Source of the DNA: a virus
Length of the DNA: 49,368 nt
Direction: 5' to 3' (one strand)
Virus record (IMG/VR): IMGVR_UViG_3300034220_000009
Span: 1-49,368 of that record
Each line of letters starts with the position of its first letter. Within the stretch, counting starts at the first letter, position 1. Below are positions 4,189-42,900 of this stretch, in pieces. Under the pieces are notes generated by a model. The model ran no database searches and was not told the origin of the DNA. It worked only from the letters and a program-made list of their open reading frames with translations. A program made the position numbers and the translations under genes.

Positions 4189-7100
4189 CTATTTCAGCCG
4201 AGGTTTGTCACTTGAACCCATATGACGCAAACGCGGGAGTACGACCCGGTGAAAGAAGTTCGGCTGACGGTATCGTGTCAGCAGCTTCGGCTTTTCGCGG
4301 TAGTAACTACCGCCAATATAGGCGACGCCAGTCTGACTTTGTTGAACGGTCGCATAGATACGGGATCGGCCGGTTTGAACATGAAGCGTCACCGCCTGCA
4401 CGCGAGCAATGGCAGTCTGTGGTCGGGAGTAGCTGGCTTGAACGCGCGCCGCGCCGAGCTGGTCACGGGAGGTGATCGCCTGCACGCGCGCGACGCCGGT
4501 CTGATGATACGTCTGGACGACTACGACGGTTGCCTTGCCCGTCTGATCCTGCGTAACGGTGATGTGGATACGAGCTACGCCAGTTTGCGCGCGCGAGGTG
4601 TTCGTAGTGGTCAAGACGTGGGCTACGCCGGTCTGGTCGCGCGTAGTGGTTCCCGTCAACCGAGCTACACCCGTCTGGTCGCGAGTAGCTATCGCAAGGA
4701 TGCGGGCCGTACCCGTCTGCGCCTGAAGATTGACAATCTGAACGCGGCTGACACCGACCTGATTCCTACTGCTGGTCGCGGTCAGGCGAGCTACACCTGT
4801 TTGATTTTGACTGATGATCGCCAGTATCCGAGATTTTCCTGTCTGGTCTTGCGTAACGGGCCGTTGGATGCGAGACACGCCTGATATATCTTGAGCAACG
4901 TAATGATCGATCTTGGATACGCCGGTCTGGGTGCGCGTGAATAAGACGGCGACACGAGAGACGCCAGTCTGGTCACGAGTCGTAATCAGACTACCGAAGT
5001 CGAGGTTGAAGTAATCCGTACCAATGACGTGTGTTAACAGTGCGACGCCGGTCTGGATGCGACTACCGAGAATGACGAGGTTGGCTGCTCCCGTCTGATT
5101 GCGCGTAGCGACTACCTGCACGCGAGCCGCGCCAGTCTGGTCGCGAGAGATCGTAGTAGCGATACGTGCTGTCCCCGTCTGAAGACGTACCGTGGCAGCA
5201 GTAACACGAGAGACGCCGGTTTGCGTACGCGGCGTGGAAGCGGTCAGTCTAGCCTTACCGGTCTGATCTTGTGTACCGGTCGCCGTCACACGGCTTTTGC
5301 CTGTCTGGACTTGAGCGGCAGAAGCGGTGATACGGCTACTACCGACCTGCGTCTGTGATGCCGTCGCGGTGATCCGGCCCTTGCCTGTTTGAGTTTGTAA
5401 GGCTACAGCCGTAATGCGGCTCTTGCCGGTTTGAGCCTGTCCGACCACACTACTAATGCGAGAAACACCAGTTTGAGTGCGCGACGTCGTAGTGTCACTA
5501 GTCAGGGTGTTGAAAGTGTCAAAATAGGCTACCGTAGTGCCGACTTCAGGCCCGTATGCGCCGGCTGCGATACGAAGGTTTATATTGGTGACAGCGAACG
5601 GAGCGGCAAGGCTGGCGTAATTCGTCCAAGAACTACCGTCAGTAGAGTAATCCCAGTAGATCGTGCCAGCAGACTCACGGATTCGGAAGAACTTATGCAC
5701 AGCCGAGTTATAGGCCGTATCGTTGCGTTGGTCAGAGTAGCTGCCGGACACCTGCTTTTGAGCGACCAGCATACCGCCACCGATGATCCAAGACAGGGTA
5801 TTGGAAGCGTCGAGATACACCTGAACCGCAACAGCCTGAAAAGTCGGCAAGGACTGGTTGCCGGCGTTGACGAGCTGCGAATAAAGGTAGCTGCCGGTGA
5901 GGTTATAGTTGTTGACGCTCTTGTATGTCGAGTACACTCCGGATGACGAGACGTTCCCTAGTTCAAGCTGATTGTTCTGTTCAGCCCAGTTGCTACCTTC
6001 CGTATTCCACTTAGCAGTGTCGCGACTGTTGTCGTTGAAATTGTCTGTCAATGTCTGCGCCAAAGGAAGCGTTATATTAGCCTTACCCGTCTGCGTACGA
6101 TCTACCACGGAGCCAAGAATATTGGATACACCAGTTTGCAAACGGGATAGGGTAGCAAAGACACGGGCGATACCGGTCTGAGTACGGGTGGTCGTCACTG
6201 TACCATCATTGACGTGGGAGAATACAGAGAGTCCGACAAACTGGATCGTCGTATCGGCTGCGGCGCTAAGGTTTTTCGGCGTTATGCGTACACGGAAGTT
6301 GGCATTTGATAGTTCACTGACCGTGAAAGCGTGTCCCCATGCAGTCGGGCCGCCACCGACTTTGTACGTCTCTATCGCCACATCACCAAGCTTATTGGTC
6401 GGCTTCGCCGTAGTCCAAGAGGAACCGCCGTCCCAAGACAGTTCTACATCAATAAGAACCTGCGACGCATCTGCACTAGCGATAGCTTTGATAGTCACTT
6501 CAATGTCGTCAATGGTATGCCCGGCCAAGTTCGTGATGCCGAAATCCTTCAGGGTGAAAGGGCTGTTGGTCGACACGTCAGTTCCGACCGCACTACTGGC
6601 GTCGTCCGCGTACACGTTGCTAATATTCGCCCACGCCGCCGCGACATTCTCGCTCGCGCTAGGAAGATAGCTGTTGCTTACGCCGTCATACGTCACCGAC
6701 AGCTGCGCGTCGTTGGAAGTCTCGGACATGTCTACAGACAATGTAGTGGTCAGACCGGGAGTGTGCATCACGAAGAGTACAGCGTTTCCGGGAGTCCACC
6801 CTGCACGACTTACTACGGTTTGAAGGATTGAAGATACGTCGAATTCATACCATCCATCAGGAAGATCGTCGGTACGAATCTGTGCCGCCGGAACAGATGA
6901 AGTCAGCGTACGAGAAGAAATGTCATTGACGGTAGTGGTCAATGCCGGCGCGGTGTCGGCGTCTTGCGCACTCAGACTCCATATACCACCAGAAGATGTC
7001 GCGACGCCAGAAAGCCGCAAACGTAACTTGGCAGAACGAATTGTCGCGCCCTGCGGAGCGGTCAAGCCGGTGAAACGAAACGCGATCCAACCGTAGCTAG

Positions 7101-7203: not shown

Positions 7204-9239
7204 TACTGATACACCCTTACATGAACTGCGTTATCGCTATCATAGTAGTTAGCAACATCGGTCGCGATAGAAGCCGTTAAGGTAATTTCGACATTCGAGG
7301 CAGTACTATTGTCGGTATCGATCGTCTCCCACGATCCACCAGCCACATTGTATATCTGCATATAAATCGGGCTAGAAGTGGTCGGCCGGGACGTCCGGCC
7401 TTTCCAAGTTGGTGTTAGCGGTGAAGTGTTAGTGGAGTGCGGAACGGAGAAGAGGTGTACGCCGTACAACTTGTCCTGCGTAAGATCAACGAACGAATCG
7501 TTGTCGGCAGCAGCGTCGGTCATCTGTACGCCGCTATAAGATGCAGCGAGCGACGTCTTGCCGGTGGGCAAGCTGGCAAGAGATTCTTTGGTATACAGCG
7601 GGGCAAGGATGCGTGCCGCGCCAGTCTGCGCGCGCGAAGTAGTACCGGTGGGGATATCAACGCTAGCAACGCCTGTCTGATTCTTGGTAGCCGTAGCGGT
7701 CAGCCGGGCCACGCCAATTTGTGACTGCTGTACGCTGGCAGTTACACGGGCCTTACCCGTCTGATCCTCTGATCTTGTCGTCAGGATTCGGGCAGTACCG
7801 AGTTGCAGCCGAGAGACTACCTCTTGCACGCGGGCGATGCCAGTCTGCGTACGAACAGCCTGTATTTGGACTCGGGAAACGCCTGTCTGAGTGCGAGGTG
7901 TAACAGTTTCCGCAACTTCAATAGCAGATGTGCCGAGTTGATCGCGGCTAGAAACGGTTTCAAGACGTGATTTACCTGTTTGGTCTTGCGAAGCGACGGC
8001 TTCTACTCGGGCCTTGCCCGTCTGATCCTGCGTGGTGGTGGTGTCGCTACTGCCGCCGGTCTTCGTAGTAACGATACGGGGAGTGACGGCGTTGGGGATG
8101 ACGACTCCGTTGCGAAGAACCCGGAAATCAATAGTGTCATTGTGGTCAACTTCTGCTGCTACGACTGTAATGGAATAGAGAAGCTCCATGTAATTACTGG
8201 CCGTGAGCTGTTTGCTGGTCACTAGACCTGTTTCAGAGATTTCACCGGCTACAAAGCTACCCGAGCCGCTACCTAATCTGTTGGTAGTCACGGTATCGTT
8301 TGCCAGGGACGCTGAAGCGAAGCCTAACACTGCGCTACTGCCAGTGGTAACGTCCGTATATGTGCCTCCATTCAGAGAATATTGGAGCCGGTAGTCGTCG
8401 ACTACGTTTCCAAAAACACCCGCTGTTTCCTGTATGCGGACTCTGACTTGTAGACTGCTGTCGCTGTCCAGTAAACGAGCGATCTGGGTGTTCTGAGCGT
8501 CAATCGCCGTCGATGTCGTTTCCGCGCCATCTTCGTAGAAGCAATAGGCTGCCAACTCAATCACCATAGGAGAGTTTTTTAGGGCAATAGTATAGCAAGT
8601 ATCTGTAGTGCTAGCCGACTTGCTCCGAATCGTAACGCCGATATCTTTAGGGGACAGGCAAATAGCTCGCGCTATTTGATAGCCGCCGCCATTTCCCTCG
8701 ATGAAGTTGAAGTCTACGATCTCGGATATGGAAGTAAGGTTAGCGTTTACGGGGTTGCCGAACTGAGTGCTGTTACCGTCGTCATTAGGTCTAGCCGTAA
8801 TGAAGAAGATGCTCGTATCAGGAACAGTCGTGGTCACGGCAGGTGAAGTTGCCGTGGTGCTGGGTGTCGACTTCACACTGGCAGCGATGCCGTCAAAGAA
8901 ATCTTCGGTGGGGTGAAGGTTTCTCCAAACAAATATACGACCAGAAACATGGTCTGTGCCCGGGCCGACGGTAACTGCTGGCTCTGAAGTAGTGGTCACT
9001 CTTTTCCAAAAAACATGCAGTTTGCTGCCGGCTGTAGTAGCGACATCAGTAATGGGCGAACCCGTTAGCGTAGTCCAACCCGTCGGCGCTGCAATATCGG
9101 CCGAGTTTCCTGATGTCTCGACTATCAAAAAACCTACATCGTTGAACGTAGTGCTAAGGCCAGTCGGCCATACAACCGAAACCGCAGCGCCCGTGCTGTT
9201 CGTCGCACTGCCTCTATCGAAGTATGCTGGCGCTGACAT
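7203..9239 (-). CDS. Tail fibre/tail spike-like protein (678 aa) with about 10 copies of the same 14-aa repeat
   Basis: ORF whose TAA overlaps the ATG of the next fibre gene (TAATG at 7201..7205). The central repeats read QDQTGKARVEAVAS/QDQTGKSRLETVSS/.../RAQTGAARILAPLY. Confidence 0.7.
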   Translation of the reverse strand: MSAPAYFDRGSATNSTGAAVSVVWPTGLSTTFNDVGFLIVETSGNSADIAAPTGWTTLTGSPITDVATTAGSKLHVFWKRVTTTSEPAVTVGPGTDHVSGRIFVWRNLHPTEDFFDGIAASVKSTPSTTATSPAVTTTVPDTSIFFITARPNDDGNSTQFGNPVNANLTSISEIVDFNFIEGNGGGYQIARAICLSPKDIGVTIRSKSASTTDTCYTIALKNSPMVIELAAYCFYEDGAETTSTAIDAQNTQIARLLDSDSSLQVRVRIQETAGVFGNVVDDYRLQYSLNGGTYTDVTTGSSAVLGFASASLANDTVTTNRLGSGSGSFVAGEISETGLVTSKQLTASNYMELLYSITVVAAEVDHNDTIDFRVLRNGVVIPNAVTPRIVTTKTGGSSDTTTTQDQTGKARVEAVASQDQTGKSRLETVSSRDQLGTSAIEVAETVTPRTQTGVSRVQIQAVRTQTGIARVQEVVSRLQLGTARILTTRSEDQTGKARVTASVQQSQIGVARLTATATKNQTGVASVDIPTGTTSRAQTGAARILAPLYTKESLASLPTGKTSLAASYSGVQMTDAAADNDSFVDLTQDKLYGVHLFSVPHSTNTSPLTPTWKGRTSRPTTSSPIYMQIYNVAGGSWETIDTDNSTASNVEITLTASIATDVANYYDSDNAVHVRVYQ
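7593..8030 (-). repeat. Tandem 14-codon QTG repeat array (about 10 units) inside the 678-aa fibre gene
   Basis: Residues 404-549 of the 678-aa ORF. Same consensus as the array at 4300..5481: [RQ]-x-Q-T-G-x-[AS]-R-[VIL]-x5. Confidence 0.85.
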
Positions 9240-9721: not shown

Positions 9722-9997
9722 TTACAGACTGTCGATGAGCTTGTGGGATTTGTCGATCGCTGCCTGTTCGGCTTCGACTTCTTCCGGATCACGAGCAACA
9801 ATGCCTTCATTGGCTTTGTTGTGCTTCGCGATCAGAGTGTCGAGCTGCTTTCGATCAAGGCCAGCAGGGAACTTCAGGAACTCGTTCTTGTCGACTGTAT
9901 TGGTCGCCAGAATCTCGCCATTCGGATCAACTTCGACGTGCCATGCGGTCTTCTTGCCTTGAGTAACGCTGTAGAGCTGGATAGTTTTTTCTGCCAT
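9722..9997 (-). CDS. Hypothetical structural-module protein (91 aa)
   Basis: ORF tightly packed after the 175-aa gene. No recognisable motif. Confidence 0.55.
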   Translation of the reverse strand: MAEKTIQLYSVTQGKKTAWHVEVDPNGEILATNTVDKNEFLKFPAGLDRKQLDTLIAKHNKANEGIVARDPEEVEAEQAAIDKSHKLIDSL

Positions 9998-19430: not shown

Positions 19431-19760
19431 CTACTCCACGCACCGACGGTCTTTTTTCTTGTCGAAGCACTGGCCGATGGAATTGCCGTGGGGGCAGAGC
19501 TTTGTTTTTTTAGCCTTTGAAGCCGGTGGCTGCATCGGCGGGATACTCATGCCTTCGATCTCCGGTACGGCCATCGGAATCACGCCTTTGTCAGTCAATG
19601 GTGTCTTTTCGATATCGGCCAGTCCATCGATATCCGTTTGCTTCATGGCGTAAATACGATACTGCTGATCACCGCGAACTATCGTAACTGTTTCGCCGGT
19701 ATCGGCAGCATCAAGGGCTTCTTTCAATTTCTGACGTAGGTTCCGGACGTTTATGATCAT
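19431..19760 (-). CDS. Phd/YefM-like N-terminal domain protein, putative DNA-binding regulator (109 aa)
   Basis: MIINVRNLRQKLKEALDAADTGETVTIVRGDQQYRIYAM resembles the antitoxin-fold N-terminus. The C-terminus carries CPHGNSIGQC...C. ATG 19760 is chosen because the 21 upstream codons are translated GTGTACAC palindromes. Confidence 0.5.
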   Translation of the reverse strand: MIINVRNLRQKLKEALDAADTGETVTIVRGDQQYRIYAMKQTDIDGLADIEKTPLTDKGVIPMAVPEIEGMSIPPMQPPASKAKKTKLCPHGNSIGQCFDKKKDRRCVE

Positions 19761-19823
19761 GTGTACACAGTATCGTAGTGTGTACACACTTGCAAGGATT
19801 TTTGTGTACACACCCGTGTACAC
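19761..19823. promoter_or_regulatory. Operator-like array: four GTGTACAC palindromes
   Basis: GTGTACAC at 19761, 19780 (within the 12-bp palindrome GTGTGTACACAC), 19804 and 19816 (CGTGTACACG). They abut the start codon of the Phd-like gene. Confidence 0.7.
19767..19795 (-). promoter_or_regulatory. Putative leftward promoter giving a leaderless mRNA
   Basis: Minus strand: TTGCAA (19795..19790), 17 nt, TACTGT (19772..19767), then 6 nt (gtacac) and ATG at 19760. Two palindromes overlap it. Confidence 0.45.
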
Positions 19824-19862
19824 GGTACTGTGGGTCTACTCAAAAAATTTTCTAGCTATATA

Positions 19863-20330
19863 TAACAGGGGTCAGATAGGCATACTTGAAATTTTTTGTA
19901 GGTATGGGGGCGGTGAGGAGGCTATCTATATAGATATCGACACCGGCCGCAAGCTTTTCCGGGTGGCGGGGGGGTTCGAGGTCGCCTGTTGACAAGAGGT
20001 TAATATCATTACAGAACGATACACTCACCCCTGTTAAAGATGATGTATATACACGGCCATAATGGGCGGCATACGCTACAGATGGCACGAAATACGGGGC
20101 GCTGACCCCTGTTAGCGTCGCACATTCATCATTGTGCGCCTTCAACGCCAACGCATCACCTTGAGACACGACCATTAACAGGGGTGGAAGCAGGGCGAAA
20201 TCCATTCACCCCCGTTGAATGTCCGCATAATCTACCCATTGATTAACACTCATATACACACGATCTATTTGTATACGTGTATGTATATATGTGGATAAGT
20301 TAGCACGGGCTGGATTCGTAACCCCTGTTA
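19863..20330. repeat. Iteron array: five exact ACCCCTGTTA 10-mers in both orientations plus one degenerate copy
   Basis: Plus orientation at 20027, 20105 and 20321. Minus orientation (TAACAGGGGT) at 19863 and 20176. Degenerate ACCCCCGTTG at 20208. Confidence 0.85.
19923..19936. repeat. 14-bp perfect palindrome TATCTATATAGATA
   Basis: Read directly. It sits between A/T tracts (AAAAAATTTT near 19846, AAATTTTTT near 19890) in the control region. Confidence 0.8.
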
Positions 20331-20340
20331 CTCTACGTTG

Positions 20341-20370
20341 TCCGCACATTGGTATTGACAATCTCCGCAC
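20341..20370 (+). promoter_or_regulatory. Pair of TCCGCAC heptamers (23-bp spacing) flanking the -35 of the early promoter
   Basis: TCCGCAC at 20341..20347 and 20364..20370. An inverted partial copy GCGGACA lies at 20392..20398. Confidence 0.7.
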
Positions 20371-20383
20371 GCTGGCAGATACT
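20355..20383 (+). promoter_or_regulatory. Rightward early promoter (sigma70-type)
   Basis: TTGACA (20355..20360), 17 nt, GATACT (20378..20383). It is the first plus-strand signal upstream of the early operon. Confidence 0.65.
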
Positions 20384-20460
20384 AGGGGCTAGCGGACAGG
20401 CAGCCACCGCCACCACCGATACAAGGGGTAAAAACAGGCAGCACACACACAAATACTAAT

Positions 20461-20495
20461 ACGGCTCATCAATCGAAGTTAAGCCGTTTAACAAT
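20461..20495 (+). promoter_or_regulatory. Leader hairpin plus boxA-like TTTAACAAT upstream of the first early gene
   Basis: ACGGCT (20461..20466) pairs with AGCCGT (20482..20487). It is followed by TTTAACAAT (20487..20495), then GGAGG and ATG at 20511. Confidence 0.5.
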
Positions 20496-20510
20496 CTGGA
20501 GGTCATCACA

Positions 20511-20669
20511 ATGCGTGATATCTACCCATCAATCAAAGCACGGCAGGATAGCCGGACAGGATTGACCCAGCGGCAGATGGCAATCATTGACGGCATGTAC
20601 GGCGCTTGCGTCGTCATCAGCATGACGGTCATCGGCTGGACGGGATACACCCTACTAGCGCTAATCTAG
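20511..20669 (+). CDS. Small membrane protein (52 aa), first early gene
   Basis: GGAGG lies 8 nt upstream of the ATG. MRDIYPSIKARQDSRTGLTQRQMAIIDGMYGACVVISMTVIGWTGYTLLALI. It is below the ORF-track size cut-off. Confidence 0.6.
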   Translation: MRDIYPSIKARQDSRTGLTQRQMAIIDGMYGACVVISMTVIGWTGYTLLALI

Positions 20670-20740
20670 CGGAACGCTAGGCCGCCGGAACACTCCGGCA
20701 GCCTGTGGGCTTCACTAGTCCAGTACATTCACAAACAATA
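20667..20740 (+). repeat. Conserved early intergenic cassette, copy 1
   Basis: TAGCG-GAA-CGCTA (20667..20679). Hairpin GGCCGCCGG-AACACT-CCGGCAGCC (20680..20703). Then TGTGGGC, CACTAGTC (20713..20720) and TACATTCACAAACAAT (20724..20739). Confidence 0.85.
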
Positions 20741-20741
20741 A

Positions 20742-20755
20742 TTGCGGACAGATTG
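20742..20755. repeat. Inverted repeat A, left arm (TTGCGGACAGATTG)
   Basis: Perfect reverse complement of 21079..21092. It extends to 17 bp if one G-U pair is allowed. Confidence 0.9.
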
Positions 20756-20778
20756 TCAATCATAACGAAAGGACAATC

Positions 20779-21054
20779 ATGTTAGTACCAATTATCGAGC
20801 AAATGGAAGTCAGCGACATACATGCTTTAATCGGCATGAGCGTCATACTATTTGTAAAGATGCGGCTAGCAGGCGTGGACGTTGTAGTAAGCGGCAGTTA
20901 CGATATTGCCACGAACAACTTTAGTCCTACAGCCATACAGCAGGACGCCAGCGATGCAGGCACAAGTATAAAAGACTTTTGCGAATCGATGGAATGGGAT
21001 ACCGTAGGCACTCGACGTGAGATACAGCTAGCTGTAAACAACCGAGACTACTAG
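20779..21054 (+). CDS. Early hypothetical protein (91 aa)
   Basis: AAAGGA RBS upstream. The ORF is bracketed by inverted repeat A. Confidence 0.65.
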   Translation: MLVPIIEQMEVSDIHALIGMSVILFVKMRLAGVDVVVSGSYDIATNNFSPTAIQQDASDAGTSIKDFCESMEWDTVGTRREIQLAVNNRDY

Positions 21055-21078
21055 CAGCACGTCACCCATTGTGGGTGG

Positions 21079-21092
21079 CAATCTGTCCGCAA
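21079..21092. repeat. Inverted repeat A, right arm (CAATCTGTCCGCAA)
   Basis: Reverse complement of 20742..20755. Confidence 0.9.
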
Positions 21093-21108
21093 GCGAAAGG
21101 GGTAATCC

Positions 21109-21252
21109 ATGGGTATGACCTATGAATTGCAAGGCACTTTACCAACCGTACGGACTCTGACAGCGGAGGACTACGCATTTATAGATGCGTGCGCCACGCC
21201 TTACGAGCCTATGCCGACAGTATCGGCGGCAGATATGGCGGTGGCACTATGA
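21109..21252 (+). CDS. Early hypothetical protein (47 aa)
   Basis: AAAGGGG RBS. MGMTYELQGTLPTVRTLTAEDYAFIDACATPYEPMPTVSAADMAVAL. The stop overlaps the next start (ATGA). It is preferred over the GTG-extended frame of ORF 21189..21617. Confidence 0.5.
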   Translation: MGMTYELQGTLPTVRTLTAEDYAFIDACATPYEPMPTVSAADMAVAL

Positions 21253-21617
21253 AGGCGTTTAACTTCATCACGATGACAGAGTACGGCGGCCGCAACGCAC
21301 TGTTGGAAGGCAACGGCGATTTACCGGCGTTTGCATCATTCAATCAATTGCGTGATAGCGGCTATATGGTGAAAAAAGGCGCAAAATCCGTCAGTATCTT
21401 TTGCGGCTATCGCCAGCGGAAGGATAAGACAACAGGCAAGATGACGACAGTACCCACGTCCGGCCGAGTGTTCGACATCATCGACACGACCGCCGCCGAC
21501 GATAAGGGATATATAAAACATCTGAAGGCCGAAATCAAAAAAGGTAGGGTCAAGCCATCGCCAGCCGAAGCCGAAGCAATGGCAGGGGCGGCAGTGATGG
21601 AAGCATTGACAGCCTAG
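21249..21617 (+). CDS. ArdC-N (DUF1738)-like ssDNA-binding/antirestriction-type domain protein (122 aa)
   Basis: GGRNALLEGNGDLPAFASFNQLRDSGYMVKKGAKSVSIF resembles the ArdC N-terminal pattern (...G-x-N...-F-x-Q-...-G-x-V-x-K-G-E-K), from motif memory. Confidence 0.45.
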   Translation: MKAFNFITMTEYGGRNALLEGNGDLPAFASFNQLRDSGYMVKKGAKSVSIFCGYRQRKDKTTGKMTTVPTSGRVFDIIDTTAADDKGYIKHLKAEIKKGRVKPSPAEAEAMAGAAVMEALTA

Positions 21618-21686
21618 CAGAGCGCTACAGCGCCGGAATACTCCGGCACTGTATGGGCTTTACTAGTCCAGCACATTAAAACTAAT
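21615..21686 (+). repeat. Conserved early intergenic cassette, copy 2
   Basis: Starts on stop codon TAG. TAGC-AGAGC-GCTA. Hairpin CTACAGCGCCGG-AATACT-CCGGCACTGTAT. Then TGGGC, TACTAGTC and CACATTAAAACTAAT. Confidence 0.85.
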
Positions 21687-21699
21687 CAGAGGTAATAGC

Positions 21700-21906
21700 A
21701 TGTACATAGCTATCAGCCAATTTAATGACGTGGTGGTTTTGAACAAGCACCCGCGCAAGGAATTGCGGGATCTATACGGCCGTTCGGAACATACGAAGAT
21801 ACAGAAAATGTATCGAGATAAGGCCGACGGCGGCAGTAAACACGTCGGTTACGTTATCGACGGCTTATGGTTCACCTTATTTGAAGCCAAGCCATACGAA
21901 CGATAG
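21700..21906 (+). CDS. Early hypothetical protein (68 aa)
   Basis: AGAGG RBS. ORF ends in the TAG of cassette 3. Confidence 0.65.
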   Translation: MYIAISQFNDVVVLNKHPRKELRDLYGRSEHTKIQKMYRDKADGGSKHVGYVIDGLWFTLFEAKPYER

Positions 21907-21979
21907 CGACGCACTACAGCGCCGGACACTCCGGCGTTGTATGGGCGGCACTAGTCACCCAGTACTTTAATAAACAAAT
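21904..21979 (+). repeat. Conserved early intergenic cassette, copy 3
   Basis: Starts on stop codon TAG. Hairpin TACAGCGCCGG-ACACT-CCGGCGTTGTA. Then TGGGC, CACTAGTC and TACTTTAATAAACAAAT. Confidence 0.85.
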
Positions 21980-21998
21980 CTTGTGCGCTCATTGTCAG
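21980..21998. repeat. Inverted repeat B, left arm (CTTGTGCGCTCATTGTCAG)
   Basis: 19-bp perfect reverse complement of 22264..22282. Confidence 0.95.
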
Positions 21999-22018
21999 TA
22001 ATAAGACAAGGGGCGTAT

Positions 22019-22243
22019 ATGTACAATCTAATCGATATCAGTCAAAACACGAACATTGACCAAGCGTCAGAGCTTGTGGACTTGTTCCGCAAGCTGGACA
22101 AATACACCGAAGCAGGCAAGCCGGTAGTCATCGTAAAAGATGGCGAAATCAAGGCCGGTAACAGTCTGGCGTGGTCATGGTCAAGGGTTCATGACTTTCA
22201 GATAGGCGAGGGCATGGAGTACCGGCCATATACGAACGATTGA
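22019..22243 (+). CDS. Early hypothetical protein (74 aa)
   Basis: ATG 22019 is preceded by AAGGGG. The ORF is bracketed by inverted repeat B. Confidence 0.65.
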   Translation: MYNLIDISQNTNIDQASELVDLFRKLDKYTEAGKPVVIVKDGEIKAGNSLAWSWSRVHDFQIGEGMEYRPYTND

Positions 22244-22263
22244 TACACGCCAGCGGTTTACCG

Positions 22264-22282
22264 CTGACAATGAGCGCACAAG
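22264..22282. repeat. Inverted repeat B, right arm (CTGACAATGAGCGCACAAG)
   Basis: Reverse complement of 21980..21998. It is preceded by the local hairpin CAGCGG-TTTA-CCGCTG (22251..22266). Confidence 0.95.
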
Positions 22283-22316
22283 AGTAAGGGCGAAAGCCTA
22301 GAAAACGGAGCAAATC

Positions 22317-22721
22317 GTGATAGAACCTCTGACGAAATCAGAACGGGAAGAAACGGCGGCCGAATTGCGCAAGCTGTTACGTGGGCATCATGAGATATTG
22401 ACACTTGCGGAATGGCGAGGTAGCACGGCATATGTACGGCTATTCATCGTCAAACACAATCGACTGATTAACATCACGTCAAATGCAGGTGTGGCGATGG
22501 GCGAACGCATCAGCCACCGGCCAAGTCAGCCGTACGGATTCAAACGGGGCGGCTACGGATACGGACGTGAGTTTGATGTAGTGTACGGACTAGGCCGGAC
22601 GCTGTACCCAAAAGGCCACAAGCACACCGTGAAGCATTGTCACAGCAACGATCATAGCAACGGCGACAAACGTGCATGGCATCCTGACGGCGGTTACAAA
22701 TTTAATCAGCGAAGTATCTAA
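22317..22721 (+). CDS. Early hypothetical protein (134 aa)
   Basis: GTG start with GGAG 7 nt upstream. His/Gly/Lys-rich C-terminal half. Confidence 0.6.
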   Translation: MIEPLTKSEREETAAELRKLLRGHHEILTLAEWRGSTAYVRLFIVKHNRLINITSNAGVAMGERISHRPSQPYGFKRGGYGYGREFDVVYGLGRTLYPKGHKHTVKHCHSNDHSNGDKRAWHPDGGYKFNQRSI

Positions 22722-22951
22722 TGGCAGATAGCAAATACTATCAGGTAGTGCGATTCAGTCAAAAAAACGGACGTGGCAGAGTGCAGGCCAAGAATCTTAC
22801 GCTAGAACAGGCGAGAAAATGGTGCAATGACCCGCAAACGTCCAGCCATACAGCGGACAAGCCGCGCGGATGCGGCGGCGATGAAGCGATGATACAGCGA
22901 TGGAACGAAAAAGATAAACACTGGTTTGACGGCTACGAACAAATGCGATAG
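22721..22951 (+). CDS. Early hypothetical protein (76 aa)
   Basis: TAATG overlap with the upstream gene. Ends in the TAG of cassette 4. Confidence 0.65.
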   Translation: MADSKYYQVVRFSQKNGRGRVQAKNLTLEQARKWCNDPQTSSHTADKPRGCGGDEAMIQRWNEKDKHWFDGYEQMR

Positions 22952-23020
22952 CGGCACGCTAGGCCGTCCCACAGCGGGGCGGCCAATGGGTGACACTAGT
23001 CATCGGAACATTTAAACAAT
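22949..23020 (+). repeat. Conserved early intergenic cassette, copy 4
   Basis: TAGCG-GCA-CGCTA. Hairpin GGCCGTCCC-ACAGC-GGGGCGGCC (different stem sequence, same pairing). Then ATGGGT, CACTAGTC and AACATTTAAACAAT. Confidence 0.85.
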
Positions 23021-23030
23021 AGGGGGCTGT

Positions 23031-23387
23031 ATGTCAAAAGACGTTGCAGTAATACGAGACAATGACGACAAGTATATGTATCTGGTCGGTACTGATTATC
23101 CGATTGATACGCCACGGTTGGAAGAGGTCGGATACAAGCTGGAGGGCTGGCTAAGGCATAGCGAACAGTGGCAGGCCGATGATGGTTTGTACGATAAATC
23201 GGAGCCGGATAACGACCTGCTGGACGATGAGTCATACCACGGACCGCTATTCACGAACTGTATGCACCAGGTCGACCCGAACGACAAGACAGACAGCGGA
23301 TTGTGCAATGTGATGATAGCAATGTCATATGAAGGCGGCGCGCCGACATATTGCACACCGCACGAAGAATTGCACGAAGACGAATAG
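23031..23387 (+). CDS. Early hypothetical acidic protein (118 aa)
   Basis: AGGGGG RBS. Ends in the TAG of cassette 5. Confidence 0.65.
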   Translation: MSKDVAVIRDNDDKYMYLVGTDYPIDTPRLEEVGYKLEGWLRHSEQWQADDGLYDKSEPDNDLLDDESYHGPLFTNCMHQVDPNDKTDSGLCNVMIAMSYEGGAPTYCTPHEELHEDE

Positions 23388-23454
23388 CGATACGCTAGGC
23401 TGGCCGAACTATCGGCCGGCCGGTGGGTATCACTACCCGAACATTAACAATTTT
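23385..23454 (+). repeat. Conserved early intergenic cassette, copy 5
   Basis: TAGCG-ATA-CGCTA. Hairpin GGCTGGCCGA-ACTA-TCGGCCGGCC. Then GTGGGT, CACTACCC and AACATTAACAATTTT. Confidence 0.8.
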
Positions 23455-23469
23455 AGTGGAGGTTTGCAC

Positions 23470-23682
23470 ATGCGGACACTTCTATCAAACATAACGCCGG
23501 ACTGGCGTGGTCAACTCGTAAGCGCATCCGATGAATACGATGCAGCACGGATAGGACGAGAGGTTAGTATCAAGTCGCTAGTCAGAGGACGACCGGCGCA
23601 CTATAGCGAGGAACGGAACGGCGAAAAGTGTAGCATCATAATCTATTGCTTCGGCAACGTCTACGAGTTGCGAGCGGCATGA
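23470..23682 (+). CDS. Early hypothetical protein (70 aa)
   Basis: ATG 23470 is preceded by GGAGG. The longer ORF from 23329 runs through cassette 5. Confidence 0.6.
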   Translation: MRTLLSNITPDWRGQLVSASDEYDAARIGREVSIKSLVRGRPAHYSEERNGEKCSIIIYCFGNVYELRAA

Positions 23683-23723
23683 GATATGGCTGGCAAGCGA
23701 TACTAGCGGCTGGCGCTATCTGG

Positions 23724-24026
23724 CTAACCGTCGCCGTCAACACTGTCCGACGGCTGGCCGGTTGAGCAAACGGCGTTCATACAAACCCCATTAACTTCTA
23801 CACGAGAGCAGGCCGGACACAATCCGGCCTGTATCTTTTTATCATCAATGATCGCGGAGCGTCGCTGGCGGTAAATGCGCTTCGGAGCCTTACCCATATC
23901 ATCCATATGCAGCCGCACGAGCCTGTCACCGTACGCTATATCAACATATGCGCCGGTGTCACGCATGAGCCGGGTGAATATGTGGAAGTGTTTTTTAAAC
24001 TGATACAGCGTCAAGGGGCGCGCCAT
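23724..24026 (-). CDS. Hypothetical protein (100 aa) with C-terminal Cys cluster
   Basis: CPACSRVEVNGVCMNAVC suggests a zinc-ribbon-like motif. It is the second gene of the leftward island. Confidence 0.55.
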   Translation of the reverse strand: MARPLTLYQFKKHFHIFTRLMRDTGAYVDIAYGDRLVRLHMDDMGKAPKRIYRQRRSAIIDDKKIQAGLCPACSRVEVNGVCMNAVCSTGQPSDSVDGDG

Positions 24027-24591
24027 TGTTCAGCCTTACGATTATCTGATTGATTGTAATAGTGTCACCGTTTTTGATAGCTTCGGCCAGTGTTTGTGCG
24101 GCGCGCGCGTCGGCGGCGGTAGGGGTAACGGAGCCAGAGGGAGCCACCGCGCCGGGGCCGTCCTTGGTCTGGTTGTGCATCTTCTCAGTGACTTGGAGTA
24201 CATCTTTGACTGACAACTCAAGCAAACCGGCTTTTTTCCGTTTGTAATCAGCAAGTGTCATGTCTCCGTTGCGATACTCTTCATCAATGGCTGACAACTC
24301 AAGCTCATCGCCTGCCGCCTGATCCAGTTTGCGGCTCAACAGTCGAAGTGACTTCGCTCTGATCCGCTCCGCTTCAGACGCTTCCGCCTGCACTACCGTT
24401 CTTTCGATCTCAGCAATGACTTCCGGATTGCGTTTGCGCAGCATGGACAGTGCGTTGTTACTGTACTCAACGCCGTAGTTGTCCAGCAGGAACTTCCTGA
24501 TCTGCTTATACTTCTCGCCTCGCACCATCATGGCAAGGACTTGGATTTTCATAGGGTCGGTGATCTTTGGAGAGGTGAGCGCCTGGGTCAT
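23995..24591 (-). CDS. Putative HTH DNA-binding protein (198 aa), either a regulator or a small-terminase-like protein
   Basis: Start MTQALTSP at 24591, chosen because a -10 lies 6 nt upstream. The N-terminus KIQVLAMMVRGEKYKQIRKFLLDNYGVEYSNNALSMLRKR is HTH-like, followed by a coiled-coil middle. Confidence 0.5.
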   Translation of the reverse strand: MTQALTSPKITDPMKIQVLAMMVRGEKYKQIRKFLLDNYGVEYSNNALSMLRKRNPEVIAEIERTVVQAEASEAERIRAKSLRLLSRKLDQAAGDELELSAIDEEYRNGDMTLADYKRKKAGLLELSVKDVLQVTEKMHNQTKDGPGAVAPSGSVTPTAADARAAQTLAEAIKNGDTITINQIIVRLNNGAPLDAVSV

Positions 24592-24597
24592 GTGCCT

Positions 24598-24606
24598 AGT
24601 ATACCA
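24598..24606 (-). promoter_or_regulatory. Extended -10 promoter (TGGTATACT) placed for a leaderless mRNA
   Basis: Minus strand: TCCGCAC, 15 nt, TATACT, aggcac, ATG. The 6-nt gap between -10 and ATG is identical in length to that at the Phd-like gene. Confidence 0.5.
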
Positions 24607-24607
24607 C

Positions 24608-24636
24608 TTGCTCTTTAAGTGCGGATAGCGTATAAT
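24608..24636 (+). promoter_or_regulatory. Rightward promoter of the replication operon
   Basis: TTGCTC (24608..24613), 17 nt, TATAAT (24631..24636). The spacer contains GTGCGGA, the reverse complement of TCCGCAC. Confidence 0.5.
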
Positions 24637-24643
24637 GCAGCTT

Positions 24644-24687
24644 AACTTCAAGGTGTCGCAACCCTGAAGTTACATTCACAAAACAAG
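24644..24687 (+). promoter_or_regulatory. Leader hairpin plus ACATT/AACAA box (sixth box copy)
   Basis: AACTTCAAGG (24644..24653) pairs 9/10 with CCCTGAAGTT (24662..24671). It is followed by TACATTCACAAAACAAG. The 12-mer TACATTCACAAA is identical to cassette 1. Confidence 0.6.
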
Positions 24688-24735
24688 GGGTAATTTAAAA
24701 GCCGGCTATCCGAAGATGCCGGCCAAGGTGTCGCA
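24649..24735 (+). repeat. 12-bp direct repeat CAAGGTGTCGCA (two copies)
   Basis: Copies at 24649..24660 and 24724..24735, in the 5' leader of the replication operon. Confidence 0.85.
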
Positions 24736-24852
24736 CATATAGTGTAGCACACCGCCCTCGTAACACAAGATAGAGGGGGTAGCCTGAAAAAGAACAGTAA
24801 CGCGGAGGAAGCGCCACGGTACATACCGGACGCCTTCATCATTCCGTCGGCG

Positions 24853-25539
24853 GTGATGCTGGACGCTGAACTACAGCCGTTGGACTCGCGCGTGTACGGT
24901 ATCGTGCGGTGGCTGGAAACATTGAGCGCGGGAACGTGTACCGCGACCAACGCCACAATCGGCAAGTACGTCCACTCCAGCCCGAGCGGCGTCGGAAATT
25001 CACTTGTTAGACTACGAAACAGAGGATACGTCCACTGCCAATACGACGAACAGGGGTGGCGTACCGGCATTAACACCTTGATCCGCATGACCAAGACCCC
25101 TTACTCAAATGAGGAAGGGGGGGTTACTCAAATGAGTAATATAAAAGAGAACAATACTAAAGAGAATATATTGTCGATTTCGGACGATGAACTCACACTC
25201 GTCAACCGGCTCTACACTGGCTTCCTCATCGAATTCTATACCGACCGATCCCACTACTACGACGTGGCTGGTAAAGAAGAGCGTGACGCGATGGTGGCCG
25301 ACGCCACGAAGAAGTACCGCCTGACCGACAAACGTCGCGACCTGCTACTCCGTCGAATTAGGGACAAGGAAATCGGTTTTACGATGTGCCGGCAGGCGAT
25401 CAAGGGCTACGGATCGAGCGAGTTCCACCGTGGCGAGAACAACCGTAACTGGAAGGCTGATTTAGAGTTCATCTTTCGCAACTTCGAGAATATCGAAAAG
25501 GGTGCGAACAAATTTAAAGAAGGAGACGGTGATGGATAA
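24853..25539 (+). CDS. Winged-helix replication-initiator-like protein (228 aa or longer)
   Basis: LDSRVYGIVRWLETLSAGTCTATNATIGKYVHSSPSGVGNSLVRLRNRGYV is wHTH-like. The C-terminal GENNRNWKADLEFIFRNFENIEKG resembles phage DnaD/replication-protein C-termini. The frame is open from 24748, with an in-frame CTG at 24784 behind GAGGGGG. Confidence 0.55.
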   Translation: MMLDAELQPLDSRVYGIVRWLETLSAGTCTATNATIGKYVHSSPSGVGNSLVRLRNRGYVHCQYDEQGWRTGINTLIRMTKTPYSNEEGGVTQMSNIKENNTKENILSISDDELTLVNRLYTGFLIEFYTDRSHYYDVAGKEERDAMVADATKKYRLTDKRRDLLLRRIRDKEIGFTMCRQAIKGYGSSEFHRGENNRNWKADLEFIFRNFENIEKGANKFKEGDGDG

Positions 25540-42295: not shown

Positions 42296-42352
42296 CTGCT
42301 AAGTTTCCTAAATATCACTACCATTGTAACGTAGGGACCGCAAAGGCGATGT

Positions 42353-42380
42353 AATAAAAAAGAGGCCCGGAGGGGCCTCT
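42353..42380 (-). terminator. Rho-independent terminator after the structural operon
   Basis: The minus strand reads AGAGGCCC-CTCC-GGGCCTCT followed by TTTTTTATT. Confidence 0.8.
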
Positions 42381-42385
42381 TTCGG

Positions 42386-42865
42386 CTAGACCTTGAGACT
42401 ACCGTTTTTGCGTAGCTTGTCGAGCTGTTTTTGGATTTCGGAGTCGGTCTTTTTGTTGTAGTTCTCTTCAGACAAAGGAACCATCAGGCCGCCGACATTG
42501 CGGACGTGGGTGTGTGGCGTCTTGCCATCGAAGACATCCACGGTGCTGCCATTCCGACGAGGAAAGCCCATACCAGCTTCGTCCTGTTGCAGACCACTAT
42601 CCACGACACGATCAGGTGTACCTTCGTCGCCTTCGTTGTTGAAGTTGGCTGGGACTGGCTCCTGATCGGCTGGGACTACTGGCTCCTGCGATCCATCGTC
42701 AACTTCTACGGTGTTGCCTTCGTCGTCGACGAACTCGCCGTCGCTGCTGGCATCCAAGGTAGCCTTCGCGTCTTCAGGAACTTCTGATCCCTTGACGCCT
42801 TTGCCATCTTCATCGAAGTAACGGACTTTACCGCTGGCATCGGTGCGCTTCTGGTAGTTTGGCAT
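42386..42865 (-). CDS. Hypothetical acidic protein (159 aa)
   Basis: Last ORF of the structural operon before the terminator. Confidence 0.6.
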   Translation of the reverse strand: MPNYQKRTDASGKVRYFDEDGKGVKGSEVPEDAKATLDASSDGEFVDDEGNTVEVDDGSQEPVVPADQEPVPANFNNEGDEGTPDRVVDSGLQQDEAGMGFPRRNGSTVDVFDGKTPHTHVRNVGGLMVPLSEENYNKKTDSEIQKQLDKLRKNGSLKV

Positions 42866-42900
42866 GTAGTTCTCCTTCTTATTACAGGTGCTATTATAGC

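What the first reader, a model, noticed from the sequence alone, without database searches (positions are those of the whole stretch)
21980..22282. A second early ORF (22019..22243) is bracketed by a perfect 19-bp inverted repeat homologous to the first, with both arms co-varying
CTTGTGCGCTCATTGTCAG (21980..21998) is the exact reverse complement of CTGACAATGAGCGCACAAG (22264..22282). Aligned with repeat A, the left arms share the pattern TTG-G--C--ATTGTCA but differ at about 7 positions. Every difference is mirrored in the right arm. Two independent perfect pairs derived from a common ancestor mean that complementarity itself is under selection. Both left arms lie directly after a cassette (copies 1 and 3), and both enclose one small ORF of unknown function. 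A local hairpin CAGCGG-TTTA-CCGCTG (22251..22266) overlaps the right arm, which offers alternative pairing.
Basis: seen in the sequence. Interest (0 to 1): 0.7.

Follow-up and report, generated by a model that had tools for sequence, protein, structure and literature searches.

The report
RNA stems closing single phage genes
In the early operon of an uncultivated 49-kb phage, two small genes of unknown function are each enclosed by a long-range base-paired RNA stem; related phages have the same arrangement with compensating mutations, so the pairing is selected at the RNA level, most likely to process or protect each gene's message.

Summary
A perfect 20-bp inverted repeat (21979-21998 / 22264-22283; 21 bp with one G·U on the sense strand) brackets ORF B (22019-22243). 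No perfect repeat longer than 16 nt appeared in 200 shuffles. Repeat A (20742-20758 / 21076-21092) is a paralogue: 10 pairs identical, 5 changed on both sides, 1 wobble change, 0 broken. The window is a new podovirus-like phage genome with no nucleotide match in GenBank phages. The repeats lie in an early operon with one sigma-70-type promoter and one terminator.

Relatives (TerL 43-70% identical) carry the same module: a 16-28 bp stem around one early ORF. In the longer stems every non-Watson-Crick pair is G·U on the coding strand, 17 in four stems. Two tandem modules in L043 differ by 4 double compensatory changes. The enclosed ORFs are unrelated ORFans, while the arms and a small hairpin abutting the 3' arm are conserved.

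This favours an RNA helix over DNA inversion. No recombinase gene, target-site duplication or extra copies were found. The likeliest function, which is inferred, is an RNase III-type processing or end-protecting "panhandle", comparable to rRNA processing stalks, T7 early RNase III sites and hok tac/fbi. I rate it a new variant of a known kind.

The parts
20355..20383 (+). Sigma-70-type promoter (TTGACA-17-GATACT). It is the only strong + strand promoter upstream of the early genes and the presumed start of the polycistronic early transcript.
   Evidence: 10 of 12 matches; sequence. Equivalent TTGCAT/TTGCAA-17-TATACT/TAATAT promoters are seen by eye in L041, L043 and L029.
20666..20741 (+). Cassette 1: hairpins, then a CAGTACATTCA motif, directly upstream of left arm A.
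   Evidence: (D1-D4)
20742..20758 (+). 5' arm of module A (TTGCGGACAGATTGTCA)
   Evidence: (I2). It is 17 bp with 1 G·U on the + strand.
20779..21054 (+). ORF A, 91 aa, no known family
21063..21077 (+). Local hairpin CACCCA-TTG-TGGGTG abutting 3' arm A (2 nt shared)
   Evidence: sequence; counterparts in wB and L147
21076..21092 (+). 3' arm of module A (TGGCAATCTGTCCGCAA)
   Evidence: pair probability of the closing stem is 0.97
21903..21978 (+). Cassette 3: it overlaps the stop codon of ORF 21700-21906 and holds a GC-rich hairpin GCGCCGGA-CAC-TCCGGCGT, then TGGGCGGCACTAGTC and CAGTACTTTAATAAACAAA.
21979..21999 (+). 5' arm of module B (TCTTGTGCGCTCATTGTCAGT)
   Evidence: (I3)
21982..22019 (+). 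Predicted local alternative hairpin. Part of the 5' arm (21982-21996) pairs with 22005-22019 and so covers the SD. It is predicted only when the 3' arm is absent.
   Evidence: the SD unpaired probability is 0.13 for RNA truncated at the stop codon and 0.44 for the whole module.
22019..22243 (+). ORF B, 74 aa, an ORFan
   Evidence: (only itself among 5.8 billion proteins)
22251..22266 (+). Local hairpin CAGCGG-TTTA-CCGCTG abutting and overlapping 3' arm B
   Evidence: it is not part of the MFE of the whole module, so it is a competing or transient structure
22263..22283 (+). 3' arm of module B (GCTGACAATGAGCGCACAAGA)
   Evidence: pair probability of the closing stem is 0.99
22288..22299 (+). 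Small GAAA-tetraloop hairpin between 3' arm B and the RBS and start codon (GTG 22317) of the next gene
   Evidence: MFE and centroid
23808..23832 (+). Intrinsic terminator-like hairpin followed by a T-run, at the end of the early operon

Best explanation
The two arms pair in the early mRNA, not in DNA. The early genes (20511-23682) appear to be read by host RNA polymerase from one sigma-70-type promoter to one terminator. Within that transcript a 21-bp helix (17 bp for module A) joins the sequence about 20 nt upstream of the ORF's start codon to the sequence about 20 nt downstream of its stop codon. The ORF and its ribosome-binding site are thereby closed into a 'panhandle' loop.

Shown:
- The helix is far beyond chance.
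- It is predicted to dominate the fold.
- It belongs to a family of homologous ORF-bracketing helices in related phages. These keep pairing through compensatory changes and use G·U pairs only on the coding strand.

Inferred: the helix is a double-stranded-RNA signal of about two turns that marks off the ORF as its own mRNA unit. Most likely the host RNase III, or an equivalent dsRNA endonuclease, cuts it. That would release a monocistronic message whose two ends stay paired and protected, and would free the downstream genes. RNase III works this way on the stems flanking 16S and 23S rRNA and on the T7 early precursor.

The conserved arms around unrelated ORFans suggest a portable frame that lets newly acquired early genes be expressed independently of their neighbours.
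For: Chance and fold:
- A perfect 20-nt repeat against a maximum of 16 in 200 shuffles.
- A and B are the only such pairs in the window.
- The MFE and centroid of 21970-22320 contain the 21-bp closing stem, z = -8.07. Module A gives z = -4.45.
- The closing-stem pair probability is 0.95-0.99 in six modules.

Strand asymmetry:
- A and B each gain one G·U pair on the + (sense) strand only.
- Relatives have stems of 28 bp/5 G·U (L041), 28/5 and 19/4 (L043) and 24/3 (L029). All are on the strand of the enclosed early gene.
- In an ORF-by-ORF scan of about 13,800 upstream/downstream pairings on both strands, six of the seven scoring 16 or more were these sense-strand early-gene modules. The seventh (L025, 21 bp with 6 G·U, AT-rich) was not followed up.

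Covariation:
- wA versus wB: 5 double and 1 wobble change, 0 broken.
- L043 M1 versus M2: 4 double and 3 wobble changes, 0 broken.
- Five sequences: 95.8% of cells paired, 14 of 19 pairs with double changes, 0 of 500 shuffles as high. Slid controls gave 30-44% paired.
- Orthologous modules L043-M2, L051 and L053 share the ORF (65% aa identity) and the 5' UTR, but their arms diverged with pairing kept.

Architecture:
- It is conserved down to 44% TerL identity. L147 has the inner half AGATTGC/GGCAATCT of wA and the same abutting 6-bp hairpin.
- The RBS always lies outside the arms.
- The arms are a 25-27-nt insert relative to arm-less cassettes.

Operon context:
- One promoter and one terminator.
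Against: - No cleavage, transcript ends or RNA structure have been measured, and the host and its RNases are unknown.
- The repeated cassettes may contain promoters of a type my scan does not recognise. In that case the 5' arm would sit at the very 5' end of a short transcript, and end protection without cleavage would explain the data as well.
- T7 RNase III sites are local hairpins with internal loops, not 300-560-nt-loop stems.
- A perfect 20-bp duplex cut on both strands can destabilise a message rather than stabilise it, as in the rnc and pnp leaders (my own knowledge).
- The arms contain conserved sequence blocks: ATTGTCA, AGATTG-C, CTTGTGCGCTCAT (which also occurs singly in L029), and TGCGGACA in both arms of A. 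A pure helix requirement does not explain these. They hint at a sequence-specific protein partner or a second function.
- Many relatives have no module (L040, L042, L004-L008), so it is dispensable.
Confidence: 0.5

Rival explanations
1. The same RNA helix forms but is not cleaved. It acts as a structural insulator and end protector. The 5' end of the message is buried in the helix, whether that end is a primary end from a cassette promoter or an end made by an endonuclease at the conserved AC/AUU(A) motif just upstream. This shields the mRNA from 5'-end-dependent decay by RNase E, RNase J or RppH, and isolates the folding of the ORF's ribosome-binding site from neighbouring sequence.
For: - The 5' arms begin 1-10 nt after the conserved cassette motif (G)nAC(A/T)TTAA in wA, wB, L041, L043-M2, L029, L051 and L053.
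- That motif fits the RN|WUU RNase E consensus (my own knowledge), or it could be a promoter -10 element.
- A 14-bp 5'/3'-UTR interaction modulates RNase Y cleavage of B. subtilis hbs mRNA (PMC5737220).
- The RBS is left outside the arms in all modules.
Against: - End protection needs only a short 5' hairpin. A partner 300-560 nt away and 17-28 bp of near-perfect duplex seem more than is required.
- The transcript continues past the 3' arm into the next gene, so the 3' end is not the mRNA end unless it is processed.
- The cassettes do not score as sigma-70 promoters.
Confidence: 0.22
2. The helix is a translational timing switch of the hok tac/fbi type. While the ORF is being transcribed, the 5' arm folds locally onto the Shine-Dalgarno region. 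Only when the 3' arm has been made does the long-range helix form and change ribosome access. Later trimming of the 3' arm reverses it.
For: - For module B the truncated RNA is predicted to form a 14-bp local hairpin (21982-22019) that hides the SD. The unpaired probability is 0.13, against 0.44 with the closing stem.
- Local competing hairpins exist at both arms.
- hok mRNA uses a 5'-3' tac/fbi stem plus a metastable 5' hairpin (PMC9841398).
- icaR uses 5'/3'-UTR pairing with RNase III (PMC3868564).
Against: - The effect on predicted SD and AUG accessibility is not consistent across modules. wA, L043-M1, L043-M2 and L041 are unchanged and L029 goes the opposite way.
- The arms never include the SD.
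- No antisense gene or promoter was seen.
- The ORFs are unrelated to one another and match no toxin or other known family.
Confidence: 0.1
3. The repeat is a DNA-level element. The arms could be recombination sites of an invertible segment, terminal inverted repeats of a small mobile cassette, or recombination hot spots for shuffling early ORFs.
For: - Homologous arms flank unrelated ORFans in hypervariable early regions. This looks like cassette exchange.
- Repeat B is perfect.
Against: - All 17 non-Watson-Crick pairs in four long stems are G·U on the coding strand. At DNA level these are mismatches, so the repeats are only 79-88% complementary.
- The arms of A and B differ at 5 of 17 positions, yet each pair matches itself. 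That is the opposite of what one recombinase site would show.
- No integrase, invertase or transposase was found among the ORFs scanned.
- There is no target-site duplication at the arm borders and there are no extra copies in the window.
- Inversion would put the ORF antisense to its only promoter.
Confidence: 0.06
4. The arms are paired operator sites for a phage DNA-binding regulator, with looping between two inverted half-sites, rather than an RNA helix.
For: - TGCGGACA occurs 5 times in the window, all within 20220-23478. Both arms of A are among them, and there are two copies next to the early promoter.
- ATG(C/T)GGACAT sits in the early promoter spacer of L041.
- CTTGTGCGCTCAT occurs singly in an early 5' UTR of L029.
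Against: - Module B and the modules of the relatives lack TGCGGACA.
- Operators recognised by one protein should be conserved in sequence, not co-vary.
- The G·U asymmetry has no DNA-level meaning.
- This rival could be an added layer for module A only.
Confidence: 0.07

Closest known systems
RNase III processing stalks of rRNA operons, and RNase III sites of the T7 early polycistronic mRNA
   Same: - About two turns of dsRNA mark off functional units inside a long precursor made by host RNA polymerase.
- In rRNA the two strands of the helix flank the unit at long range.
- In T7 the sites lie between early genes (PMC4858673).
   Different: - Here the enclosed unit is a small protein-coding ORF with its RBS, unlike rRNA.
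- T7 sites are local hairpins with internal loops that are cut once.
- Cleavage is not shown here and the host is unknown.
hok/sok-family mRNAs (tac/fbi long-range stem)
   Same: - The 5' and 3' ends of a 300-400-nt mRNA around a small ORF pair at long range.
- A competing local hairpin forms at the 5' arm.
- The pairing was originally supported by covariation (PMC9841398).
   Different: - There is no antisense RNA, no overlapping leader ORF and no toxin-like peptide.
- The SD is not consistently sequestered.
- The modules sit inside a polycistronic phage operon and the transcript runs on past the 3' arm.
5'/3'-UTR interactions in bacterial mRNAs (S. aureus icaR; B. subtilis hbs)
   Same: - Base pairing between the UTRs flanks one ORF and controls ribonuclease action.
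- The nuclease is RNase III for icaR and RNase Y for hbs (PMC3868564, PMC5737220).
   Different: - Those are single cellular genes with 14 bp or shorter, imperfect pairings, and in icaR the pairing overlaps the SD.
- Here there is a multi-member, co-varying family of 16-28-bp helices in phage early regions.
PeSL regulatory cassettes of T4-type phages
   Same: - Short repeated promoter/stem-loop cassettes lie between small ORFans in hypervariable early regions.
- This resembles the five hairpin cassettes of the window that precede the arms (PMC2839356, PMC4122927).
   Different: - PeSLs are direct repeats with a sigma-70 promoter and a terminator.
- They do not bracket the ORF with complementary arms.
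- The cassettes here do not score as sigma-70 promoters or U-tract terminators.

Membership tests
RNase III substrate (processing-stalk type) | Continuous or nearly continuous dsRNA of about 20 bp or more, formed in the transcript | tested here: met
   Predicted stems are 21 bp (B) and 17 bp plus 6 bp after a bulge (A). Relatives have 16-28 bp. Pair probability is 0.95-0.99.
RNase III substrate (processing-stalk type) | Staggered cleavage by RNase III in vitro or in vivo | not testable with these tools
   No RNA data are available and the host is unknown.
RNase III substrate (processing-stalk type) | Lies in a polycistronic precursor | tested here: inconclusive
   There is one sigma-70-like promoter and one terminator for 10 ORFs, but the cassettes could hold unrecognised promoters.
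hok-type tac/fbi mRNA | Long-range pairing of the 5' and 3' untranslated regions around a small ORF | tested here: met
hok-type tac/fbi mRNA | The closed form sequesters the SD; a metastable 5' hairpin forms during transcription | tested here: inconclusive
   A local SD-covering hairpin is predicted for B only. There is no consistent SD effect in six modules.
hok-type tac/fbi mRNA | Small hydrophobic toxin ORF and a cis-antisense RNA | tested here: not met
   - The ORFs are 48-171 aa, unrelated to each other and match no family.
- Read by eye, ORF B looks soluble; hydrophobicity was not computed.
- No minus-strand promoter lies inside module B.
- No Rfam hit.
Invertible DNA segment (Hin/Gin/Fim/shufflon type) | Inverted repeats flanking the segment | tested here: met
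Invertible DNA segment (Hin/Gin/Fim/shufflon type) | A site-specific recombinase gene nearby, and the same core sequence at all sites | tested here: not met
   - No recombinase family among the scanned ORFs.
- The arms of A and B differ at 5 of 17 positions.
- The relatives' arms are imperfect as DNA but perfect as sense-strand RNA.
Invertible DNA segment (Hin/Gin/Fim/shufflon type) | Both orientations present in a population | not testable with these tools
MITE / TIR transposon | Terminal inverted repeats plus target-site duplication, multiple near-identical copies, and a transposase in cis or trans | tested here: not met
   - Flanks are AAACAAA|...|GTAAGGG (B) and CAATAA|...|GCGAAA (A), so there is no duplication.
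- Only one copy of each arm pair exists.
- No transposase was found.
PeSL cassette (T4-type) | Sigma-70 early promoter plus a terminator stem-loop, repeated as direct copies between ORFans | tested here: inconclusive
   Five direct copies with hairpins lie between early ORFs, but there is no sigma-70 consensus or U-tract in them. This applies to the cassettes, not to the inverted repeat.
Any curated RNA family (Rfam 15) | Match to a covariance model | tested here: not met
   No hit at E <= 1 in 19500-25000.

The most novel reading that the evidence does not exclude
The arm-ORF-arm units are a previously undescribed class of portable phage 'panhandle' expression modules. A conserved, sequence-specific long-range RNA helix with an abutting hairpin would be recognised by a dedicated phage or host factor. 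It would let freshly acquired early ORFans, probably host-takeover or anti-defence genes, be excised from the early precursor, stabilised and expressed autonomously. The same arms might also serve as the joints at which such ORFs are swapped between phages.
Probability: 0.2. Interest if true: 0.75.

Novelty: new variant of a known kind. Interest (0 to 1): 0.6.

Why it matters
How phages express and exchange the many small, fast-evolving early genes is poorly understood. This includes most anti-defence and host-takeover genes.

A conserved RNA frame that closes single ORFs into their own loop would be a simple natural insulator or processing device. It would be analogous to the ribozyme, RNase III or Csy4 insulators used in synthetic biology.

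It would also extend long-range 5'-3' mRNA pairing from a few isolated bacterial cases (hok, icaR, hbs) to a recurrent, co-varying family. The modules mark out a set of ORFans for functional testing.

The idea is directly testable with transcripts of about 350 nt and purified RNase III, or by structure probing.

Tried and rejected
- Nucleotide search of 20600-23100 against GenBank phages: no match.
- IMG/VR searches with ORF B, the 134-aa neighbour, TerL and ORF A as single proteins: none found.
- ORF B against 5.8 billion proteins: only itself. Covariation therefore could not be tested on orthologues of module B itself.
- tblastn of all window early ORFs against the relatives' loci: no hits. 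The early regions are hypervariable.
- Exact 17-mer of arm B in IMG/VR: five hits, all inside unrelated coding sequence with no partner arm. I read these as chance and rejected them.
- Perfect-repeat scan of relatives: missed the modules. They appear only when G·U is allowed.
- L009 perfect 20-bp repeat: it brackets a noncoding AT-rich region near a contig end, so it is a different thing.
- L021/L022 21-nt repeat: it lies inside a + strand structural gene with its G·U pairs on the antisense strand, so it is not this class.
- A general SD-sequestration model: predicted accessibility is not consistent across modules.
- Sigma-70 promoter or U-tract terminator in the cassettes or arms: not supported.
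- Rfam: nothing.
- MAFFT alignment of arm constructs put gaps on one side only and broke the register. I used a structure-anchored ungapped alignment instead. That alignment is built from arms chosen because they pair, so its shuffle statistics overstate independence.

Full report
1. THE OBSERVATION

The sequence at 21979-21998 (TCTTGTGCGCTCATTGTCAG) is the exact reverse complement of 22264-22283. On the + strand a T21999·G22263 wobble extends it to 21 bp.

The repeat encloses ORF B: ATG 22019, stop 22241-22243, 74 aa, SD AAGGGG at 22008-22013. The hairpin CAGCGG-TTTA-CCGCTG at 22251-22266 is present and shares 3-4 nt with the right arm.

Chance is excluded:
- In the whole 49-kb window the only perfect inverted repeats of at least 14 nt with a 60-900-nt gap are this one and repeat A.
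- In 200 composition-preserving shuffles the longest such repeat was 16 nt, against 20 nt in the real sequence.

Repeat A is 20742-20758 / 21076-21092: 14 nt perfect, or 17 bp with one T·G on the + strand. It encloses ORF A (20779-21054, 91 aa). Arm by arm, A and B share 10 identical pairs. Five pairs are changed on both sides and one is changed on one side (T·G to T-A). None is broken.

2. CONTEXT

The window is essentially a complete genome of an uncultivated phage. The same proteins sit on a 49,271-bp Logan contig from SRR10948661. Its gene content:
- Structural and lysis genes: terminase, an SU10-like portal, a capsid protein, an amidase/M23 endolysin and a large LPD38-domain protein.
- Replication genes: helicases, DnaB, RNase H and a PNKP-type phosphatase.
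- No nucleotide match in GenBank phages.

I found no RNA polymerase, sigma factor, RNase III, integrase, invertase or transposase among the ORFs scanned.

The + strand early genes (20511-23682, ten small ORFs) lie between the only strong sigma-70-type + strand promoter (TTGACA-17-GATACT, 20355-20383) and the only strong + strand terminator (23808-23832).

Five repeated cassettes lie between the early ORFs. Each consists of hairpins followed by a conserved (G)nAC(A/T)TTAA motif. Aligning the five cassette-to-ATG regions shows that the two left arms are a 25-27-nt block inserted between that motif and the RBS. The block is absent from cassettes 2, 4 and 5.

3. RELATIVES

ORF B is an ORFan, and the window's early ORFs have no homologues in the relatives' loci. 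I therefore found related phages through the terminase. There are many contigs of 40-50 kb with 43-72% TerL identity and the same gene order.

I ran two scans:
- a G·U-aware scan for long-range stems;
- an ORF-by-ORF scan that pairs the 70 nt upstream of each start codon with the 70 nt downstream of its stop codon, on both strands.

In one search, about 13,800 pairings gave a background that tails off at a score of 13-14, plus seven outliers at 16 or more. One outlier (L025, 21 bp with 6 G·U, AT-rich, near the end of its locus) was not followed up. The other six are all on the coding strand of early genes:

| Module | Stem | Enclosed ORF |
|---|---|---|
| L043-M2 | 28 bp, 5 G·U | 95 aa |
| L041 | 28 bp, 5 G·U | 171 aa |
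| L029 | 24 bp, 3 G·U | 48 aa |
| window B | 21 bp, 1 G·U | 74 aa |
| L043-M1 | 19 bp, 4 G·U | 96 aa |
| window A | 17 bp, 1 G·U | 91 aa |

Further modules turned up elsewhere:
- L147: 16 bp with 2 G·U.
- L051: 26 bp with one mismatch.
- L053: about 26 bp with a 1x2 loop, and possibly a second, tandem module.

Not every relative has a module. L040, L042 and L004-L008 have none.

4. RNA OR DNA?

Three observations favour RNA.

(a) Strand asymmetry. In the four long stems of the relatives, all 17 non-Watson-Crick positions are G·U on the strand that encodes the enclosed gene. On the other strand, and in duplex DNA, they are A·C mismatches. As DNA repeats the arms are only about 79-88% complementary.

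(b) Covariation.
- The two tandem modules of L043 are paralogues. They share an identical 12-nt spacer TTGCAACCTAAC between the stop codon and the 3' arm. Their arms differ by 4 double compensatory changes and 3 wobble-compatible single changes, and no pair is broken.
- L043-M2, L051 and L053 enclose orthologous ORFs (65% aa identity) and have nearly identical 5' UTRs. Their arms have diverged extensively while pairing is kept.
- In a structure-anchored alignment of wA, wB, M1, M2 and L051, 95.8% of cells pair and 14 of 19 pairs show changes on both sides. No shuffle out of 500 reaches these values. Sliding the partner by 1-3 columns gives 30-44% pairing.
- Caveat: these arms were selected because they pair, so illustrates the covariation and is not an independent test.

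(c) Thermodynamics. The closing stem is in both the MFE and the centroid of the module RNAs (B: -130.6 kcal/mol, z = -8.07; A: z = -4.45). Its pair probability is 0.95-0.99 in six modules.

Against DNA-level models:
- No recombinase or transposase was found.
- There is no target-site duplication.
- There are no extra copies.
- The arms of A and B differ from each other.
- Inversion would put the ORF antisense to its only recognised promoter.

5. ANATOMY OF THE MODULE

From 5' to 3' the module consists of:
1. a cassette motif;
2. 1-10 nt, then the 5' arm;
3. 18-27 nt containing the RBS (only 5 nt, with no visible RBS, in L029);
4. the ORF;
5. 11-21 nt;
6. the 3' arm;
7. the RBS of the next gene, or the next module.

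In the wA/wB/L147 subfamily a 6-bp hairpin abuts the 3' arm, shares 2-4 nt with it, and co-varies: CACCCA/TGGGTG, CAGCGG/CCGCTG and GCCAGC/GCTGGC.

The arms also carry conserved blocks:
- TTG...ATTG(T/G)CA is shared by wA, wB, M1 and M2.
- AGATTG-C/GGCAATCT is shared by wA and L147.
- The first 13 nt of arm B (CTTGTGCGCTCAT) occur once, unpaired, in an early 5' UTR of L029.

The enclosed ORFs are unrelated to each other and have no known function. Of 79 IMG/VR homologues of the L043-M2 ORF, L051 and L053 are clearly bracketed. L103, L130 and L127 are borderline. The helix is therefore not a property of that gene family. It belongs to the slot in this phage lineage.

6. MECHANISM

Shown: a selected long-range RNA helix closes each ORF and its RBS into a loop.

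Inferred: the helix is a dsRNA signal that delimits the ORF as its own mRNA unit within the early precursor. The best analogies are two RNase III substrates. One is the stems flanking 16S and 23S rRNA. The other is the T7 early precursor, which RNase III cuts at five sites into mono- and dicistronic mRNAs (PMC4858673). After cleavage the two remaining half-arms would stay paired and would hide both ends of the message.

I give the RNA-helix core about 0.85 and the RNase III step about 0.4-0.5.

Rivals:
- An uncleaved helix that protects the 5' end and insulates folding, as in the hbs 5'/3'-UTR interaction (PMC5737220).
- A hok-like timing switch (PMC9841398). For B a local hairpin (21982-22019) is predicted to hide the SD when the 3' arm is absent (unpaired probability 0.13 versus 0.44). 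The effect is not consistent across modules.
- A DNA-level cassette or inversion element.
- Operator sites. TGCGGACA is clustered in 20220-23478 and lies in both arms of A.

7. COMPARISON AND NOVELTY

Long-range 5'-3' pairing around an ORF is known from single cases: hok, icaR (PMC3868564) and hbs. RNase III processing of phage early precursors is classical. Repeated regulatory cassettes between early ORFans are known as PeSLs (PMC2839356).

What appears new is a multi-member, co-varying family of ORF-bracketing helices in phage early operons. The arms and an abutting hairpin are conserved around unrelated ORFans. Nothing in Rfam matches.

I rate it a new variant of a known kind, with interest 0.6. 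The function rests on inference until transcript ends, cleavage or structure are measured.

Noticed in passing
window 20220-20227(-), 20339-20346(-), 20743-20750(+), 21084-21091(-), 23471-23478(+); L041 about 8939-8987 and 9108-9120: The octamer TGCGGACA occurs five times in the window, all within 3.3 kb of the early region. Two copies flank the early promoter, two are the arms of repeat A, and one overlaps the start codon of the last early ORF. ATG(C/T)GGACAT also sits in the spacer of the early promoter of relative L041. It looks like an operator-type motif.
   Followed up: partly
window 19858-20330 (for example 19863-19875, 20026-20036, 20102-20114, 20176-20186, 20320-20330); L008 9341-9738; L009 about 375-390 and 660-672; L041 about 9245; L043 about 7250-7330: Repeated (T)AACAGGGGT / ACCCCTGTTA motifs lie in both orientations in the noncoding region between the late and early genes. 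They are conserved in relatives with 52-70% TerL identity. They are candidate iterons or regulator sites.
   Followed up: no
window 19753-19830: A cluster of GTGTACAC palindromes (TGTGTACACA repeated at least 4 times) lies at the divergent regulatory region.
   Followed up: no
window 20666-20741, 21614-21690, 21903-21978, 22948-23020, 23384-23455: Five intergenic cassettes have the same layout:
- a stop-codon-overlapping 5-bp/3-nt-loop hairpin (TAGCG-nnn-CGCTA);
- a GC-rich hairpin;
- a third hairpin that co-varies (GGGTA-nnnn-TACCC, GGGCT-n5-AGTCC, TGAC-ACTA-GTCA);
- the motif (G)nAC(A/T)TTAA.

They have no U-tract and no sigma-70 consensus. The motif fits the RN|WUU RNase E site (my own knowledge), or it may be an unrecognised promoter. 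Similar cassettes occur in L041, L043, L029, L051 and L053.
   Followed up: partly
window 42350-42364 / 42872-42886 (minus strand): A 15-bp stem with 2 G·U (TGTAATAAGAAGGAG / CTCTTTTTTATTACA) brackets the minus-strand ORF 42386-42865 (159 aa). The 5' arm includes the RBS. Its score (13.8) is at the edge of the background tail, so it may be chance.
   Followed up: no
L029 7046-7058 (minus strand): The first 13 nt of window arm B (CTTGTGCGCTCAT) occur once, with no complementary partner. They lie about 12 nt upstream of the RBS of a 28-aa hydrophobic early ORF in a phage with only 43% TerL identity. About 0.01 such matches are expected by chance (my estimate). This suggests the arm sequence has a function of its own.
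   Followed up: partly
L009 92-111 / 638-657: A perfect 20-bp inverted repeat brackets a 526-bp AT-rich noncoding region just upstream of TerL and next to the contig end. It encloses no ORF. It may be related to genome ends or an origin.
   Followed up: partly
L021 9421-9441 / 9964-9984 and L022 5778-5798 / 6345-6365: A 21-nt inverted repeat (2 transitions) lies inside a + strand structural gene between the portal and capsid genes, and is conserved in two relatives. Its G·U pairs are on the antisense strand, so it is not of the class described here.
   Followed up: partly
L044, L045, L009 (contig ends 600-730 nt upstream of TerL): Several 40-49-kb contigs of relatives end just upstream of the terminase gene. 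This suggests that the physical genome ends or terminal repeats lie in the regulatory region between TerL and the early genes. In the window that junction is internal, consistent with a permuted assembly.
   Followed up: no
window 22270-22287: The right arm of repeat B contains a five-codon mini-ORF, ATG AGC GCA CAA GAG TAA, with no SD upstream. It is probably meaningless. It explains why the exact arm sequence turns up by chance at gene starts in unrelated viral contigs.
   Followed up: partly
window 21249-21617: An early ORF has weak similarity to the ArdC N-terminal domain and to anti-restriction proteins (phrog_7245, E = 1e-5; PF08401, weak). This is consistent with the early operon carrying anti-defence genes.
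   Followed up: no
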